DNA from: Alphaproteobacteria bacterium
Lineage (GTDB): Bacteria; Pseudomonadota; Alphaproteobacteria; RF32; CAG-239
Direction of reading: 5' to 3'
Length of the DNA: 64,000 nucleotides
NCBI GenBank assembly: GCA_045611785.1
Contig: JAZKXV010000021.1
Coordinates: 14,903-78,902, forward strand
Below, in pieces: positions 42,001 through 54,000 of this stretch; positions within the stretch are counted from its first letter, which is position 1, and the number at the start of each line of letters is the position of its first letter. Made by a program: the position numbers.

Positions 42001-45000
42001 TATTTTAAATTTCCAGCTTTTTATGCATTAACGCTTTTGCTGTAACGAATTGTTTTTTCGTAAAAAATTTCTGTGTAACAAAAATTTCATAATCCGTTTT
42101 AGTATTCTTGACCACTTTTTATACACCTAAAAGGTAAAAAAAACTCTAACATTTCGCATATTTAAAATTCGCACACAATTTTATGTATTATATAAGACGA
42201 GTCTAAATCAAAAAAATTATTGAGATTCAATTCTATTAACGCAATTTTAATATTATTAGTTGTATCTTGACACAAGATATAATTGGCTAACAATCCGTTT
42301 TGCAAACACAAGTGCTTGTTTTAATTGATTTATTAGCTTTTAGGAGTAATATATTTAAATGAGAAAAAATGGCATAAAAAATTTTATTTTTAGCTTTGCT
42401 ATATCTTTATTAGCAGTTTTTGCTGTTAATAAAACGGCTTTTCATACTCAAAAAAATAACAATATTACTCAAAAAGAAATCAAAACCAAAAGCATATCAT
42501 TATTTTCAAAACAAAATGACGACATACAAAACGATGAGATTGAAAACAATTTACACAATATGGATAAATTGGTTGCAAAAGAAGCATTACAAACAGCAAA
42601 TTCCGTTGCCAACCTTCCTGAAATAAATATTGAGCCACAAGTACTCAATAATAATATAAATAATAAACAAGCCTCCTCTGAAGTTGTATACTCACCGGAA
42701 ATTGAAAAAGAAAACAACATACAGGCGCCAAGCATTGATCACGCACAACACATCAATCTAGCTTCTGCCAGCGAAATCATCTTAGAAAAAGAACAAATCA
42801 TATCCGAAGCAAGTAAAGCGGCTGTTTCATCAATTGCAACTAACGCTCCTGTTGTATATTCTGACATTAGCGACACAATTGAAGATGAAACAAAATTAGA
42901 CGGTTATAAAAATACATCTTTCGTTGTTGCTGATAGCAAATCTGCAATCAACTTTAATGAACCCACAGAAGATGCTATACCGCTTGTTCAAAACGATGAA
43001 ACATTACACGACAACATTAATGTATTAACATCAGCACAAAACACTCAAATTGCTATGCTTGAACCAAACACTTTAGTAAATTCAATTGAAAGCATAGAAA
43101 AAGAAGAAGAAAAAAACATTTCTGAAGTTAATTTAAAAGAAGAAACCATTGTTTCTAGCAACTGGATAAAAGACGAAAGTGCGGTTTCCAACACCCAAAC
43201 AACAGAAAATGTTTCTGTTTTAAGCAATTGGAAACAAATGTCTGAAGAGGAAGAAGACAGCCCTTGGGTTGTTGCAAAAGGTAATCGCTTTGCAAAAAAC
43301 AAAATTGCACAAATAGACGCATTAGCCGAAGAGGAAGCAGAAAAAAAGAAAAAAAGCAAAAAGGATGATCAAAAAGAAAAATCTTCTGAAACCATTAAAG
43401 CAAACTCTCAAAATGAAACTGTAGTTGAAAAAGAAACACTTTCTGAAAACAAAAAGACAGAAACATCAGAGGCAAAACTACAGCAAACAAACTCTATTGA
43501 AAAACCAAAAGAAAACGTTATTACGGCATATGATGAGAATAAAGAGCCAAAAGCTCAATATACCTATGTTTTACCGAAACCGATTTTCAATTATTACACA
43601 ATTAATCAAAGTGTAAGCAGTGAAACACAAAAACCACAAGCAAAACAGGAAGCAGAGCCTGAAGAAAACAAGGACACAAATAAAGATAAGGTTGCAGAAA
43701 ATGTTCTTAACCCAAAACCTTTACTTATTCCATCTGATGGCAAAAAAACAAAGTTAGCCTATAACCCAATCCCAAATCTTATCATTCCATTGCCTGATGA
43801 CATTGCAAATGATACAGATATAACACCTCAATTGTCTTCTGAACCAAAACAATCGTCAGACAAGGACCTAAATAAAGAAGAAAAAGAAAGCGGATTATTT
43901 AAAAGCATCAGCTCTTGGTTCTCCAGTGACGAAAAAGATAAAGAAAAAGAAGAAGAGAACGGAAAAGATAAAAAGAACAGTAAAAAGCCTACTAAAAAGA
44001 AAAAATCAGCTTTCTCATTGTTTGAATCAAAATCCGATCCGAAGCTTGAAGAGGAAGAACAACCCGCTCAAGATATCGAAATAATGCCGGCGGAACTAAA
44101 ATTGTCATTCCAACCAAATAGAGCTGAAATTTCCGGACATACATTACGTTGGATACATGCATTTGCAGACAATGCTCGTGACAATTTAGGTATTTATATC
44201 GAAATCAGAATTGACGGAACAAGCTCTTTTGCTTTGCAACAAAAAAGACTTAACTTATTAAGCTCTATATTTGCAAATCGAGGCGTAGATTTTAGAAAGG
44301 TGAACATTGTTTTCACTTCTAGAGAGCCAAACTCTTTTATTATTAGAAATATAAAATTCAACAACAGTGAAGAAATTATAGTAAACAAGGACAAGGACGG
44401 AGGACTTTATCAACATTGGTAATAAGTAATCTGAGACACTTGATTATTTAAATTTCAATCTGTATGATAGGAAAAATACTATGAAATATGACTTAGGGGA
44501 AATAAATATGAATAAAAAAATATTTCTATCAGCTTGTGTGACATGCTTTTTAGGTTTATCGGGCTGTACACATAATCAGCCTGAATACTCACAATGCACA
44601 GGCCCAAATTGTCAACCTCCGGTTGATTATGTTTGCGACGCATCCGATGATCCATCTTTATGTCCATCAGACCCTTTTGTAAACTACACTAGGGGAGCTG
44701 CAGATTATAGAGAATATGGAGAAAGAACTCCTCGTGATCGTTTATTTTCGCAATCAGCTGCCGGAAACAATCTTTCAGCGGCAGTTCCGCCTTCAATTGA
44801 AGATGAAGTCATATCATATTCTGAGCGCTTAGAAAGACCAGCCCCACAACCTAAGCCTAAACACAAAGCTAAAAAAGCTCCAGCAAAAGCCGAAGCTGAG
44901 CCAGAAGCTGCTCCAGCAGCAGCCACAGTTGCACCTGCTATCCCCGCGCCGGTGGCACCTGCTGTACAATTAGCAACACAAAATATTAACCAAGCTCCAT

Positions 45001-51000: not shown

Positions 51001-54000
51001 TTACAAAGAAACATGATTAAATTATTACAAGAAAAGAACTATGAAATTAATTTAATCACGGTGGAAGACCCTCCAGAATACCCTATTCCTGGTGCAAGAC
51101 AAATGCCTGTGACCAACGCAAACACAGAAGAAGAAAAAGAAGCAGAATTTACAAAAGCTCTTAATGCCGCTTTGCGTTCAGACCCTGACGTAATGATGGT
51201 TGGTGAGATCCGTTCTTTATCTGCGGCTGAATTGTGCTTCAAGGGTGCCTTATCAGGTCACGGAATGTGGTCTACTTTGCACGCGAACTCTGCCCCTGCA
51301 ATTATAACTCGTTTTAGAGATATGGGTGTTCAACCTTACATGCTTGGTGACCCTGAGTTAATGAAAGGATTGATTTCACAACGTTTATTCAGAAAGCTTT
51401 GTCCTCATTGCCGTAGATCAATTAAAGAAAGATATGGCGATCCTTCTTATGAAAGATTAAAAACAGCATTAGGTGAGTTTGGTATTGAAAACACCTTCGT
51501 ACGCGGTGAAGGATGCAAATTCTGCGGATATAAAGGTTTTAGCGGACGTATGTCAGTTCCTGAAATTATATTGCCAGATGCTATGTTCTTGCAATTGATG
51601 ATTGGTGGTGACACAAAACGTGCCATTGACTATTGGACCAGTGAATTAGACGGTCGTCCGATGAAAGATGGTGCTATTGAACGTATGTTAAAAGGTAATA
51701 TTGACTTAGATGAAGTTGAACGTTGGTGCGGTTTGCTTGATCAACGTCCTGTTTACTAGGAGTATTTTTTATGGCTAAAGAGAAAAAATCACAATTTAAC
51801 AAGGCTATGAAATCGTTAAACTCAATCGAGGTATATTATGCCAAGATGATTTGTAACTTTTCAAACGAAACCAGATTAAAAATCTTTCGTAAGTTGGCTT
51901 CCTTAATGAGAAACCGCTTCTCATTGATGGACGCATTAGATATGTTACACGATGGTATTACCAACGGTGGTAAGAACCCTAGTGAACCTATGGCTATTGC
52001 TTTAGCCAGCTGGGGAAGAGCCTTACAAAACGGTGTACCTTTTTCAGATGCGCTAAAAGGTTGGGCTCCTAACCGTGAACGACTAATGTTATCTGTTGGT
52101 GACGTGTCAGACTTAGAAAGTGCTCTCCTAAACCTTGTAAAAGTTACTGAAGGTACCACAAAAATGATTAGGCCTATTCGTAGTGCGGTTACATATCCAT
52201 CATTTTTGTTTATGATGGCAATTGTAATTGTGTACGCAATTGGTGCATACATGGTGCCACCGATGATTGATGCTGCCCCAGGAACAAGATGGGTCGGAAC
52301 AGCAAAATCTGTTGTGGACATTTCTTATTGGATTAAGGACAACTGGCTAATAGCGTTTACGGCGTTTCCATCTTTAATGCTTGTTATTTATTTAACGATT
52401 AGTATTTGGACCGGACCTATCAGAGCAATAATTGATAACGCACCACCTTGGTCATTATATAAAGTGTTTATGGGAATTACATGGTTGCTTGCTTTATCAG
52501 CTTTAGTAAAAGGTGGCGTTCCAGTATCCGTAGCTCTTCAATCTTTAAGACGAGACTCTAATGCTTATCTGAAGGAACGAATTGATAAGACCATGGTTTA
52601 CATAAAAAACGGTGATAACTTAGGTCAATCATTAATGAAAACCGGATTAAACTTTCCTGATAAAGAAATCATTTCAGACTTAAAAATTTATTCTGAATTG
52701 GATAACTTTGAAGAAGCGTTAGAAAAACTTGCAAATGACTGGTTAGAAGAATCTGTTTATATGATTGAACAAAAAGCTTCCGTTTTGAACATGTTGGCAT
52801 TGTTAGCCGTATCAGGTGTTATTGCCTGGGCCGTATTCGGCGTGTTTGAAATGCAAGAGCAAATTACAGACTCCATGGGAGGCTAACAAGTATGGAAAAA
52901 CTCCTAACTATGTTAAAAAACACACAAATATTAGCTTGCGTTGCTATCGGTTTATTACTGGTAGCGGCGCTTGCTTTTCTATTTAGCAGTTCTCCTACGA
53001 GAACTTATAGTGCTGTAGAACAAGAGTTGCTTGAACTATCAGGTAATATTCGCAACAATTATATGCAAAAACCAGATTACAGAGGTTTAAACAATCAAAA
53101 GCTTATTACAGACAATATAATACCTAATCAATTGCTCCGTAACAATAAAATTATGAGCTCAATCGGCAAAGAATATATTATCGGGCAAAATGGAAAAGGC
53201 GATGTTGTAATGCCTTCTCAACGAACTTTTATGATAACTCTTAATAACTTAAATAAAAAAGCATGCCAAGATATTGCTATGTTGCAGATTGGCAATGAAG
53301 ATACTTTAAGCTTACAAAAAGTTATTATCAACAATGCTTCTGAAACCATTGAATTTGAATGGGGAAGCACCAATTCTTTACCTATTTCTGTAAACAAAGC
53401 TAATGAAGTATGCGCAAGCAAAAACAACATCAGCTGGGTTTTTGAATAAATAATATATTTAAATTCTGAAATAAAAAAGGATAGAAAGTTTATTTCTATC
53501 CTTTTTTATAAACTATAATTTGATTAGGCCGTGTTTTTTCTTACCTTGTGAAAGTTTCACCTGTCCATCAATTATATCGTTTGTTGTTATTTGATAATTT
53601 TCATCTGCAACAACTTTATCATTTACTTTAAGTCCTGATTGTTTAATTAAACGACGAGCTTCTCCTTTTGATGCAACAAAACCTATTTGTAAGAAAGCAT
53701 CTAAAACGCTTAAACCTGCATTTAAATCAGCCTTTATAACCGGCAAATCTGCACCCGTTAAACCTTCTTCAAAAGTTTTTGTAGCGGTTTCGAGAGCTGC
53801 TTTAGCTTCGTTTTCACCTCTACATAATTTAGTAGCTTCAAAAGCTAAAATCTTTTTAGCTTCATTAATTTCTTTGTCTTGCAAAGCTTCAAGTCTTCTT
53901 ACTTCATCCATCGGTAATGTTGTATAAATTCGTAAGCACTTACCAACTTCAGCATCGCCGATGTTTCTAAAATATTGATAATAGTCATATGAAGAAAGTT

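What the first reader, a model, noticed from the sequence alone, without database searches (positions are those of the whole stretch)
44481..53449. R64/ICE-like type IVb (thin-pilus-type) biogenesis operon with expanded components
The gene order is a PilL-like lipoprotein, a PilN-like lipoprotein secretin, PilO, PilP, a GspE-family ATPase (PilQ) and a GspF-family platform (PilR). This reproduces the pilLNOPQR core of conjugative-plasmid and ICE type IVb pili and is not the PilMNOPQ/PilBCD set of type IVa pili. PilL and PilP carry acidic tandem repeats and a coiled-coil extension. This module is best known from conjugative elements and some pathogenicity islands. Its presence next to a T4SS in a small AT-rich genome suggests a dedicated cell-attachment or DNA/partner-contact pilus. 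No prepilin peptidase or pilin lies inside the operon; the pilins are 40 kb away.
Basis: partly seen in the sequence, partly recalled or inferred. Interest (0 to 1): 0.75.

Follow-up and report, generated by a model that had tools for sequence, protein, structure and literature searches.

The report
Chromosomal type IVb pilus operon
This is a real, intact operon for building a type IVb pilus (a thin adhesive fibre that probably retracts), inherited together with a neighbouring type IV secretion system across a large group of uncultured gut alphaproteobacteria; the core machine is a known kind but several accessory parts are unusual.

Summary
The gene order is real. The + strand carries a TcpQ-domain lipoprotein (PilL/BfpG-like), a PilN/BfpB-family lipoprotein secretin, PilO2/BfpC, a long PilP-like protein, a BfpD-like ATPase and a GspF-type platform. 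It is a type IVb pilus system, not a T2SS.

- The last gene in the stated range (52892-53449) has a type IVb pilin fold, so a pilin-like gene does lie in the operon. It has no prepilin cleavage site and looks like a membrane-tethered pilin head.
- The proteins match EPEC bundle-forming pilus proteins and alphaproteobacterial or betaproteobacterial megaplasmid sets better than IncI1/R64 proteins. A BfpF/PilT-like candidate retraction ATPase, which the IncI1 pil operon compared here lacks, lies at 61058-62014.
- The window shows no mobile-element hallmarks. A scan matched 220 species-level gut and rumen MAGs. In the 80 fetched, the operon sits in the same divergent position next to the VirB-type T4SS wherever the flank was held.

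The operon probably starts one gene earlier (42359-44422), with a membrane protein carrying an OmpA-like domain. No prepilin peptidase is in the window. The proposed role, a retractile contact pilus serving the adjacent T4SS, is inference. Verdict: new variant of a known kind, moderate interest.

The parts
41969..42358 (.). 390-bp divergent intergenic region between virB2 (- strand) and the first pilus-operon gene (+ strand); presumed shared promoter region
   Evidence: ORF map. One of the best promoter-like matches, TTGACA-16-AACAAT, lies at 42267-42294, but the scan as a whole is not above chance (52 sites against 43.9 +/- 5.9 expected). Its role as a promoter region is inference.
42359..44422 (+). 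Probable first gene of the operon: a 687-aa protein with an N-terminal hydrophobic segment, a long low-complexity region and a C-terminal OmpA-like (peptidoglycan-binding type) domain at about residues 581-660
44481..45461 (+). PilL/BfpG/TcpQ-like lipoprotein (326 aa): lipobox LSGC, a conserved N-terminal region, a species-specific Pro/Ala plus acidic-repeat insert, and a C-terminal TcpQ domain
   Evidence: PF10671 4e-16 at residues 240-317. BfpG 36% identity, 8e-19; IncI1 PilL 1.5e-5. hhalign to BfpG 98.8%, to IncI1 PilL 90.5%. Bosea TcpQ 45%. Lipobox-like motif in 60 of 75 orthologues. Insert 121-220 absent in most orthologues. 21-nt repeat at 45066-45119.
45448..47073 (+). PilN/BfpB-family outer-membrane lipoprotein secretin (541 aa from the ATG that gene callers use; the longest ORF starts at 45424)
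   Evidence: TIGR02520 288.7 bits (cutoff 287.65) against GspD 52.7 and T4aP PilQ 38.9. The only solved-structure match is BfpB 9u5s, 191.6 bits. Hydrogenophaga PilN e-70, BfpB e-57, IncI1 PilN e-42. Lipobox (V/I/M)AAC in 68 of 78 orthologues.
47089..48378 (+). PilO2/BfpC-family bitopic inner-membrane protein (429 aa), with a hydrophobic segment at about residues 198-222
   Evidence: PF06864 8e-18 over residues 37-428. BfpC 25% identity over 416 aa, 3e-20; Bosea PilO2 5e-36; IncI1 PilO 7e-6. Close homologues are named 'type 4b pilus protein PilO2' by NCBI. The fold and partner roles of this family come from PMC3984277.
48368..50029 (+). Expanded PilP-like periplasmic protein (553-558 aa): signal sequence, variable acidic repeat region, conserved helical segment of about 185 residues, and a C-terminal PilP-type domain
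   Evidence: TIGR03021 E 0.002, 19.2 bits, below cutoff; no Pfam hit. hhalign of the C-terminal profile to IncI1 PilP: 76.6%, E 2e-5. All 80 orthologues are 413-628 aa, and residues 240-420 align without gaps. Weak heptad signal. 48-nt repeat at 48665-48763. It occupies the position of pilP/bfpU.
50047..51759 (+). Pilus extension ATPase (PilQ of R64 nomenclature; BfpD-like; 570 aa) with a CxxC...CxxC motif
   Evidence: T2SSE 2e-64. Solved structures: BfpD 8dze 290.8 bits, GspE 172, PilB/PilF 150 or less. Bosea 37.5% e-107, Hydrogenophaga e-97, BfpD e-92, IncI1 PilQ e-43. Median 76% identity across 78 loci. The Cys motif is read directly from the translation.
51771..52886 (+). GspF-family inner-membrane platform (PilR/BfpE-like; 371 aa)
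   Evidence: T2SSF 2e-25, two domains. Bosea e-75, BfpE 31% e-64, IncI1 PilR e-31.
52892..53449 (+). Pilin-fold protein without a prepilin cleavage site (185 aa): an N-terminal membrane helix, a flexible break, then a type IVb pilin head domain. It sits at the pilS position and is probably a tethered, non-polymerising pilin paralogue
   Evidence: Bundlin 1.5e-8 and PilS 1.4e-5. AF2 pLDDT 83.9: helix 2-32, break 33-39, then the head. Foldseek against the PDB gives only T4b pilins at E below 0.01: CofA, S. Typhi PilS, TcpA. All 73 orthologues lack G-x4-E. About the top 100 of 233 library representatives also lack the site, and some have a lipobox-like motif instead. The head is homologous to the canonical pilins: hhalign 99.9%, E 7e-32, aligned from residue 34 onward.
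61058..62014 (-). BfpF/PilT-like ATPase (318 aa), candidate pilus retraction motor, displaced about 7.6 kb from the operon in this genome
   Evidence: BfpF 32% identity over its full length, 4e-47; Bosea 344-aa ATPase 34%, 3e-56. The top NCBIfam model is pilT_fam at 112 bits. The true VirB11 is a different gene, 15740-16708. In many related loci this gene follows the pilins on the same strand within 3 kb of the operon (25 loci).
6130..6834 (-). Canonical type IVb prepilin (234 aa), candidate major pilin: MKYTNESG|RSMVEML with Glu at +5
   Evidence: PilS 4e-17 and Bundlin 3e-12. The N-terminus is read. In more distant relatives, homologues of up to about 70% identity lie directly after the tethered pilin gene inside the operon.
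763..4206 (-). Giant pilin-like protein (1147 aa) with a prepilin-type N-terminus (...QGG|SMMVEAM); candidate minor pilin or tip adhesin
   Evidence: N-terminus read. No Pfam or NCBIfam family. No BLAST similarity to Bosea PilV. The role is inferred from the signal motif and its position next to the pilin gene.
15740..41968 (-). Neighbouring VirB-type T4SS cluster. It is not part of the pilus machine but is co-inherited with it
   Evidence: VirB2 x2, VirB4, VirB8 x2, VirB9/CagX, VirB10/TrbI and VirB11. VirB4 and VirB2 lie upstream of the pilus operon wherever the flank was held: VirB2 in 59 loci, VirB4 in 53. VirB4 identity correlates with PilQ, PilN and PilO identity, rho 0.58-0.70.

Best explanation
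The region is a chromosomal assembly operon for a type IVb pilus of the PilN/PilO2 class, the class that contains the EPEC bundle-forming pilus and the R64 thin pilus. It appears to have been inherited as one unit with the adjacent T4SS in a lineage of uncultured gut alphaproteobacteria.

Identities shown by homology:
- PilN is a lipoprotein secretin and forms the outer-membrane pore.
- PilL is a TcpQ-domain lipoprotein, the counterpart of BfpG, which partners the BfpB secretin.
- PilO2/BfpC is a bitopic inner-membrane protein. In this family the cytoplasmic domain docks the hexameric BfpD-like ATPase onto the GspF-type platform.

Inferred steps:
- The PilP-like protein links the inner-membrane complex to the secretin through an unusually long helical spacer.
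- The upstream OmpA-like protein anchors the apparatus to peptidoglycan.
- The last gene encodes a pilin head held on the membrane by an uncleaved helix. It cannot enter the fibre and probably acts at the pilus base.
- The fibre is built from the canonical prepilin at 6130-6834, with the 1147-aa pilin-like protein as a tip adhesin. Both would be processed by an unlinked prepilin peptidase that was not found.
- The BfpF-like ATPase at 61058-62014 retracts the fibre.
- The pilus most likely attaches to and pulls in a target cell or surface, possibly for the neighbouring VirB-type T4SS.
For: Family assignment:
- TIGR02520 passes its curated cutoff.
- The best solved-structure matches are BfpD (291 bits against GspE 172), BfpB (the only secretin match) and BfpC.
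- All six core proteins match the BFP, Hydrogenophaga, Bosea and IncI1 sets in the same gene order.
- Lipoboxes are conserved in PilL and PilN.

Integrity and selection:
- All ORFs are intact, with gaps of 5-58 bp or overlaps.
- Orthologues occur in 80 of 80 fetched loci out of 220 matching species genomes. Median identities are 57-76% for PilN, O, Q and R.

Chromosomal setting and co-inheritance:
- Flanking genes are TyrS, AnmK, thioredoxin and an AddA/B-like protein.
- No integrase, relaxase, T4CP or tRNA was found in the 64 kb.
- The outer flank varies between species while the T4SS-pilus junction is kept.
- T4SS and pilus proteins diverge together.

Accessory parts:
- The tethered pilin.
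- The OmpA-like domain.
- The PilP domain and helix.
- The retraction ATPase. In relatives it lies inside the operon.
Against: - No prepilin peptidase was found in the window or within 10 kb of the operon in 80 relatives, so pilin processing is unproven.
- PilP membership is below the curated cutoff.
- In this genome the major pilin and the retraction ATPase are unlinked from the operon, so their assignment rests on synteny in relatives.
- Nothing here shows expression, piliation or retraction.
- The functional link to the T4SS is only genetic linkage and co-divergence. The T4SS lacks a visible VirD4 in the window, so its own function is unknown.
- The lineage's taxonomy rests on MAG titles. 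Vertical inheritance was not tested against a species tree.
Confidence: 0.8

Rival explanations
1. It is a conjugative 'thin pilus' carried, together with the T4SS, on an integrative conjugative element. As in R64, TP114 or PAPI-1, it would stabilise mating pairs for DNA transfer.
For: The gene order is the same as the IncI1 pil operon. The closest plasmid-borne relatives sit next to T4SS genes or PilV adhesins on large plasmids. A T4SS lies directly beside the operon. T4b pili are known to serve conjugation in the gut (PMC9045228, PMC5297154).
Against: No relaxase, coupling protein, integrase, tRNA or replication gene was found in 64 kb. PilM, PilT(LT) and PilU homologues are absent, and the giant pilin does not match the Bosea PilV. 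Matching loci occur in 220 species genomes. In the 80 fetched the internal junction is kept, protein divergence is graded (49-94% identity for PilN, O, Q and R), and T4SS and pilus proteins diverge together. GC content (0.34-0.39) is the same as the flanks.
Confidence: 0.12
2. It is a host-adhesion or auto-aggregation pilus working like EPEC BFP or TCP, independent of the T4SS. On this view the linkage to the T4SS is historical, not functional.
For: The nearest characterised homologues are BFP proteins, including a BfpF-like retraction ATPase. The organisms live in animal guts. A large Cys-rich adhesin-like protein lies nearby.
Against: The divergent T4SS-pilus junction is kept in every fetched locus that holds the upstream flank, although both outer flanks rearrange. 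That argues for selection on the linkage. There is no direct evidence either way.
Confidence: 0.3
3. It is a type II secretion system (or a T2SS-like secretion machine) rather than a pilus.
For: The top NCBIfam model for the ATPase is GspE at 224.5 bits, far below its cutoff of 630. The platform also hits GspF weakly.
Against: The secretin passes the PilN T4b model and scores only 52.7 on GspD. The ATPase is much closer to BfpD than to GspE. The PF06864 and TcpQ components are T4b-specific. No gspG-K pseudopilins, GspC, GspL or GspM were found. The pilins are of the Bundlin/PilS type.
Confidence: 0.02

Closest known systems
Bundle-forming pilus (BFP) machinery of enteropathogenic E. coli (BfpG-B-C-U-D-E, BfpF)
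   Same: The order TcpQ-domain protein, lipoprotein secretin, PF06864 bitopic protein, small periplasmic protein, extension ATPase, platform is the same. These are the best characterised and solved-structure matches: BfpD 291 bits, BfpB 192 bits, BfpG 36%, BfpC 25% over 416 aa, BfpE 31%, BfpF 32% over its full length. Both systems have a dedicated PilT-like ATPase.
   Different: Identity is only 25-37%. The pilin gene is not first. No BfpP peptidase or BfpH transglycosylase homologue was detected; the BfpI/J/K minor pilins and BfpL were not searched for. The system is chromosomal rather than on an EAF plasmid. The PilP/BfpU equivalent is about 400 aa longer. It has an extra OmpA-like gene and a tethered pilin paralogue, and it is linked to a T4SS.
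R64/IncI1 thin pilus (pilL-pilV) and related conjugative T4b pili (TP114, PAPI-1)
   Same: The gene order L-N-O-P-Q-R is identical, followed by a pilin-fold gene at the pilS position. PilL and PilN are lipoproteins. The operon is adjacent to a T4SS.
   Different: These are the weakest sequence matches of the sets compared (PilQ e-43, PilO e-6). There is no PilM, PilT(LT) or PilU, and no PilV or shufflon was recognised. No conjugation genes are in the window. The neighbouring T4SS is VirB-type. A PilT-like ATPase is present here, and none is annotated in the IncI1 pil operon.
T4bP operons on large plasmids of environmental Proteobacteria (Bosea sp. RAC05 pBSY19_1; Hydrogenophaga sp. BPS33 pBPS33-1)
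   Same: These are the closest plasmid sets overall: Bosea PilQ 37.5% e-107, PilR e-75, PilO e-36, TcpQ domain 45%, PilT-like ATPase 34% e-56. In Hydrogenophaga the pil genes directly follow virB8-9-10.
   Different: Those carry PilV adhesins, and Hydrogenophaga also carries PilM. Hydrogenophaga has a canonical PilS; no pilin is annotated at that position in Bosea. Their PilP-position genes are shorter: 129 aa annotated as PilP in Hydrogenophaga, and a 307-aa hypothetical protein in Bosea that did not match the PilP profile. Neither has a tethered pilin paralogue; the Bosea candidates do not match, hhalign below 3%.
Chromosomal R64-variant Tfp7 locus of Burkholderia pseudomallei (PMC3984277)
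   Same: It is a chromosomal T4b operon with TcpQ, PilN2, O2, P2, Q2, R2 and S2 plus a PilT-type ATPase, and with no prepilin peptidase of its own. That paper proposes processing by a peptidase from another system.
   Different: Not compared by sequence here. According to the paper, that locus has PilM2 and PilV2.

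Membership tests
Type IVb pilus machinery (PilN/PilO2 class: BFP, R64 thin pilus) | PilN/BfpB-family lipoprotein secretin | tested here: met
   TIGR02520 288.7 bits against cutoff 287.65. BfpB is the only solved-structure match. Conserved lipobox.
Type IVb pilus machinery (PilN/PilO2 class: BFP, R64 thin pilus) | TcpQ-domain partner protein encoded next to the secretin | tested here: met
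   PF10671 59.2 bits against cutoff 27. hhalign to BfpG 98.8%.
Type IVb pilus machinery (PilN/PilO2 class: BFP, R64 thin pilus) | PF06864 (PilO2/BfpC) bitopic inner-membrane protein | tested here: met
   PF06864 64.9 bits against cutoff 26.7, over the full length. BfpC 3e-20.
Type IVb pilus machinery (PilN/PilO2 class: BFP, R64 thin pilus) | PilP family protein (TIGR03021) | tested here: inconclusive
   19.2 bits against cutoff 34.65. hhalign to IncI1 PilP 76.6%, E 2e-5. The position is right. No match to PF04351.
Type IVb pilus machinery (PilN/PilO2 class: BFP, R64 thin pilus) | GspE-superfamily extension ATPase grouping with T4b ATPases, plus a GspF-type platform | tested here: met
   BfpD 291 bits against GspE 172. 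T2SSF with two domains. This is a ranking of scores; no phylogenetic tree was built.
Type IVb pilus machinery (PilN/PilO2 class: BFP, R64 thin pilus) | Type IVb prepilin with a class III signal (Gly at -1, Glu at +5) | tested here: met
   Met by 6130-6834, which has PilS and Bundlin Pfam matches and G|RSMVE. Not met by the in-operon pilin-fold gene 52892-53449, which has no site in any of 73 orthologues.
Type IVb pilus machinery (PilN/PilO2 class: BFP, R64 thin pilus) | Prepilin peptidase (A24 family) | tested here: not met
   None in the 64-kb window or in 80 related loci (tblastn with BfpP and PilU at E below 1; Pfam scans). The rest of the genome could not be searched. Chromosomal T4b loci without their own peptidase are known (PMC3984277).
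R64 thin-pilus variant specifically (conjugative) | PilM, PilT lytic transglycosylase, and a PilV adhesin with shufflon | tested here: not met
   No tblastn hit for PilM or PilT. hhalign of the tethered-pilin family against PilM is below 1%. The 1147-aa pilin-like protein has no BLAST hit to Bosea PilV. Shufflon repeats and Rci were not specifically searched for.
R64 thin-pilus variant specifically (conjugative) | Carried on a conjugative plasmid or ICE, with relaxase and coupling protein | tested here: not met
   No such genes in the window. Housekeeping flanks. Conserved across many species genomes.
Type II secretion system | GspD secretin, GspC/L/M, and pseudopilins GspG-K | tested here: not met
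   GspD model 52.7 bits against cutoff 351. No pseudopilin or GspC/L/M families in any ORF scanned.

The most novel reading that the evidence does not exclude
The pilus and the adjacent, unusually elaborated VirB-type T4SS (1418-aa VirB10, beta-flower/RHS giant proteins) could be two halves of one co-evolved contact apparatus in a widespread uncultured gut lineage. A retractile type IVb 'grappling hook' would bring another cell, bacterial, protist or host, within reach of the T4SS. The membrane-tethered pilin head and the very long PilP spacer would then be previously undescribed machine parts adapted to that coupling.
Probability: 0.2. Interest if true: 0.7.

Novelty: new variant of a known kind. 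Interest (0 to 1): 0.42.

Why it matters
The core is a textbook type IVb pilus, and NCBI's pipeline already names close homologues PilO2. The basic call is therefore correct but not surprising.

What is of interest is the setting and the accessories.
- A 2019 survey said T4b pili had until then been described only in Gammaproteobacteria; it reported new ones in Acidithiobacillia and Nitrospirae (PMC6668835). Most characterised examples are on plasmids or islands.
- Here a T4b operon is fixed in the chromosome across a large group of uncultured gut and rumen alphaproteobacteria. In the 80 loci fetched, the T4SS lies beside it wherever the upstream flank was held.
- It carries three parts I could not find described: a pilin head on an uncleaved membrane anchor, a PilP with a conserved helix of about 185 residues, and an OmpA-like first gene.

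If the pilus and T4SS work together, these poorly understood gut bacteria may depend on contact with other cells. The locus would also give concrete genes to test for this.

Tried and rejected
- T2SS reading: rejected.
- VirB11 identity for the 318-aa ATPase: rejected. The true VirB11 is 15740-16708, and the 318-aa protein is BfpF/PilT-like.
- The tethered pilin as the PilM equivalent: rejected (hhalign below 1%).
- The C-terminal domain of the upstream 687-aa protein as a divergent TcpQ, PilM or PilK: rejected (hhalign 4% or less). A PDB sequence-profile search found nothing significant. Only fold comparison identified it as OmpA-like.
- BfpU as a homologue of the PilP C-terminus: weak (14%).
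- Bosea hyp307 as a PilP homologue: weak (6.7%).
- Prepilin peptidase, PilM and lytic transglycosylase searches by tblastn in the window and 80 loci: no hits.
- Exact-sequence look-ups of the three distal pilin-cluster proteins, meant to see beyond the left edge of the window: not on record.
- Promoter and terminator scans: not above chance and uninformative.
- Literature searches for this lineage's pili or T4SS (terms RF32, pili, secretion system): nothing relevant.
- My guess that the lineage is GTDB order RF32 is from memory and was not tested. NCBI files one member (Ca. Scatocola) under Rhodospirillaceae incertae sedis.

Full report
**Observation**

The + strand between 44481 and 53449 holds seven closely packed ORFs. 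Gaps are 5-17 bp or the genes overlap.

| ORF | Coordinates | Size | Profile evidence |
|---|---|---|---|
| PilL-like | 44481-45461 | 326 aa | TcpQ domain PF10671, 4e-16, at the C-terminus |
| PilN-like | 45448-47073 | 541 aa | Secretin PF00263 3e-15; passes TIGR02520 (PilN type IVB), 288.7 bits against cutoff 287.65; GspD only 52.7, T4aP PilQ 38.9 |
| PilO2-like | 47089-48378 | 429 aa | PF06864 over the full length, 8e-18 |
| PilP-like | 48368-50029 | 553-558 aa | No Pfam family; TIGR03021 E 0.002, below cutoff |
| ATPase | 50047-51759 | 570 aa | T2SSE 2e-64 |
| Platform | 51771-52886 | 371 aa | T2SSF 2e-25, two domains |
| Pilin-fold | 52892-53449 | 185 aa | Bundlin 1.5e-8, PilS 1.4e-5 |

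The reported repeats are present in the DNA: 21 nt x 2.6 at 45066-45119 in PilL, and 48 nt x 2.1 at 48665-48763 in PilP.

A VirB-type T4SS fills 15740-41968 on the opposite strand. It has VirB2 x2, VirB4, VirB8 x2, VirB9, VirB10 and VirB11.

Canonical prepilins lie at 6130-6834 (MKYTNESG|RSMVE) and 763-4206 (QGG|SMMVE).

**Which system it is**

- Among solved structures the ATPase matches BfpD at 291 bits, GspE at 172 and PilB/PilF at 150 or less.
- The secretin matches only BfpB.
- PilO matches BfpC weakly.

I fetched annotated reference operons from an IncI1 plasmid, an EPEC EAF-type plasmid, Hydrogenophaga pBPS33-1 and Bosea pBSY19_1. I then compared all proteins with them.

| Window protein | BFP | IncI1 | Hydrogenophaga | Bosea |
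|---|---|---|---|---|
| PilQ (ATPase) | e-92 | e-43 | e-97 | e-107 |
| PilR (platform) | e-64 | e-31 | e-53 | e-75 |
| PilN (secretin) | e-57 | e-42 | e-70 | e-65 |
| PilO | e-20 | e-6 | e-16 | e-36 |
| PilL TcpQ domain | e-19 | e-5 | 0.002 | e-21 |

The gene order is the same in all four sets. The IncI1/R64 proteins are consistently the most distant. All identities are only 25-45%, so this is a deep branch of the PilN/PilO2 class of T4b pili rather than an R64 relative in particular.

PilM, the R64 PilT transglycosylase and PilU have no detectable homologue.

A 318-aa ATPase at 61058-62014 matches BfpF over its full length (32%, 4e-47) and the Bosea PilT-like ATPase (34%, 3e-56). Its best NCBIfam model is pilT_fam. 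It is a candidate retraction motor, which the IncI1 pil operon lacks.

**Source and conservation**

The exact ATPase sequence occurs on metagenome contigs.

PilO has hundreds of homologues at 53-93% identity. All that carry a name are called 'Alphaproteobacteria bacterium' MAGs.

A scan of one genome per species found 220 species-level genomes with a relative. The 80 best were fetched. Nearly all are gut or rumen MAGs from humans, ruminants, rabbits and chickens.

Mapping the window's proteins onto those 80 loci shows one kept arrangement wherever the locus reaches that far: VirB4 ... VirB2b, VirB2a on the minus strand, then on the plus strand the 687-aa gene and PilL, N, O, P, Q, R and the pilin-fold gene.

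| Protein | Median identity to window |
|---|---|
| PilQ | 76% |
| PilR | 73% |
| PilN | 66% |
| PilO | 57% |
| 687-aa protein | 41% |
| PilP | 40% |
| Pilin-fold protein | 34% |

VirB4 identity correlates with PilQ, PilN and PilO identity across loci (rho 0.58-0.70).

The outer flank is not conserved. The TyrS-AnmK-ABC-CDF block at 53513-61045 is found in none of the 80 loci.

In 25 relatives, one or two canonical pilin genes and the BfpF-like ATPase follow directly on the same strand. In this window those genes have been displaced to 6130-6834 and 61058-62014.

The window contains no tRNA, integrase, relaxase or coupling protein. Its GC content is uniform. I read this as a chromosomal T4SS-plus-pilus block that is old in the lineage, not a recently acquired ICE. 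Congruence with a species tree was not tested.

**The expanded components**

- *PilL.* Only the N-terminal region and the TcpQ domain are conserved (81-97% identity). The Pro/Ala-rich and acidic-repeat segment (residues 121-220) is missing from most orthologues. It is a local insertion in a linker. Lipoboxes are conserved in both PilL and PilN, as expected from the lipoproteins BfpB, R64 PilN and R64 PilL.
- *PilP.* All 80 orthologues are long, 413-628 aa.
  - The acidic N-terminal part varies in length. Residues about 240-420 align without gaps.
  - This stretch is K/E-rich, has 1 Pro and 0 Gly, and shows a weak heptad signal (11 of 300 shuffles reach it).
  - It could be a coiled coil or a single stable helix. 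If fully helical it would be about 28 nm long by my arithmetic, which is comparable to a periplasm.
  - The C-terminal 90 residues align with the IncI1 PilP domain (hhalign 76.6%, E 2e-5). I therefore call it PilP-like with moderate confidence.

**The in-operon pilin-fold gene**

- None of its 73 orthologues has a Gly(-1)/Glu(+5) prepilin site. Each has a basic N-terminus and one hydrophobic helix.
- An AlphaFold model from a shallow 7-sequence alignment has pLDDT 83.9. It shows helix 2-32, a break at 33-39, then a globular head.
- By Foldseek the model matches only type IVb pilins: CofA, S. Typhi PilS and TcpA, at probability 1.0 and TM about 0.5.
- A profile search of 1.84 billion representatives found 233 relatives. 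The best roughly 100 all lack the site, and several have a lipobox-like motif in place of the helix. Weaker hits are canonical pilins with G|RSMVE-type sites.
- The family's head domain is homologous to those canonical pilins (hhalign 99.9%, E 7e-32), but only from residue 34 onward.

I conclude that this is a pilin paralogue whose polymerisation helix has been replaced by a simple membrane tether. It probably stays at the inner membrane. Its function is unknown, and a role at the pilus base is my inference.

**The upstream gene**

ORF 42359-44422 (687 aa) has no family match. Homologous DNA occurs in 72 of 80 loci, at the same position.

An Asp and an Arg are nearly invariant or invariant in this domain. 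From memory, they lie where OmpA-like domains bind peptidoglycan; this was not tested.

It is probably the first gene of the operon and a cell-wall anchor. It could serve either the pilus or the T4SS.

**Mechanism**

Homology shows a secretin with its TcpQ partner in the outer membrane. It also shows PilO2, the ATPase and the platform in the inner membrane. PMC3984277 describes the PilO2/BfpC fold and the reported BfpC-BfpD-BfpE interactions. PMC12531336 describes the BfpB-BfpG complex.

The following steps are inferred:
- PilP bridges the two membrane complexes.
- The OmpA-like protein anchors the machine to peptidoglycan.
- The prepilin at 6130-6834 is the major subunit.
- The 1147-aa pilin-like protein is a tip adhesin.
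- The BfpF-like ATPase retracts the fibre.
- An unlinked peptidase processes the pilins. B. pseudomallei Tfp7 is a precedent for a T4b locus without its own peptidase (PMC3984277).

The biological role is not established. The conserved linkage and co-divergence with the T4SS make a contact function for that system attractive. BFP-like adhesion or aggregation is about as likely.

**Novelty**

The core assignment is routine; NCBI already names close homologues PilO2.

I found no paper on this lineage's pili. A 2019 survey stated that T4b pili had until then been described only in Gammaproteobacteria, and it added Acidithiobacillia and Nitrospirae (PMC6668835).

The new elements are:
- the chromosomal, lineage-wide T4SS-pilus block;
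- the tethered pilin paralogue;
- the long PilP helix;
- the OmpA-like first gene.

Verdict: a new variant of a known kind, of moderate interest.

Noticed in passing
window 15740-41968 (- strand): The VirB-type T4SS is unusual. The VirB10/TrbI homologue is 1418 aa with N-terminal beta-flower repeats. A 1702-aa ORF between VirB9 and VirB10 carries beta-flower and RHS repeats. A 1410-aa ORF has no family. VirB8 and VirB2 are each duplicated. No VirD4, relaxase or integrase is in the window.
   Followed up: partly
window 7299-12821 (- strand): An 1840-aa, extremely Cys-rich protein with an N-terminal signal-like sequence and a pectate-lyase-like adhesive domain (PF20585, 4e-5). It lies between the displaced pilin cluster and the Mla genes and may be an adhesin.
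   Followed up: no
window 5362-6057: A small GIY-YIG nuclease ORF (5362-5652) sits next to a 79-nt direct repeat (5783-5861 and 5939-6017, 85% identical) and three copies of a 20-nt motif, TCGGGCACGAGTATGACA(A/G)A. This lies between the major pilin gene and the 243-aa ORF and may be a repeat element linked to the rearrangement that displaced the pilins.
   Followed up: partly
window 763-4206 and 4217-4948 (- strand): A 1147-aa protein with a prepilin-type N-terminus has no recognisable domains and no BLAST similarity to Bosea PilV. The adjacent 243-aa ORF has an N-terminal hydrophobic segment but no cleavage motif. Their exact sequences are not on record in the contig index.
   Followed up: partly
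window 53513-61045: The block TyrS, AnmK, ABC ATPase, 1152-aa ABC permease/auxiliary protein and CDF transporter separates the operon from the BfpF-like ATPase only in this genome. None of the 80 related loci has it there.
   Followed up: yes
library proteins P0162, P0163, P0183, P0187, P0190, P0198, P0202, P0209: Some members of the tethered-pilin family have a lipobox-like motif (FYSCS, LYACG) where others have a plain membrane helix. This suggests the head domain only needs to be tethered.
   Followed up: no
L020 (CAVBCV010000002.1): The record is titled 'Lachnospiraceae bacterium' but carries the same alphaproteobacterial T4SS-pilus locus at 79-88% protein identity. It is probably a mislabelled or contaminated bin.
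   Followed up: no
L087 (Hydrogenophaga pBPS33-1) and L091 (Bosea pBSY19_1): Large plasmids of environmental Proteobacteria carry related T4b operons with PilT-like ATPases and PilV adhesins. In Hydrogenophaga the operon is fused directly behind virB8-9-10 and includes a 567-aa TcpQ-domain protein. T4SS-T4bP linkage therefore recurs outside IncI plasmids.
   Followed up: partly
L089 (ENA ERZ1761042 contig_5580): The same locus appears with many genes split into fragments (secretin in 3 pieces, ATPase in 2). This looks like long-read assembly frameshifts rather than real pseudogenes, because L090 has the same genes mostly intact.
   Followed up: no
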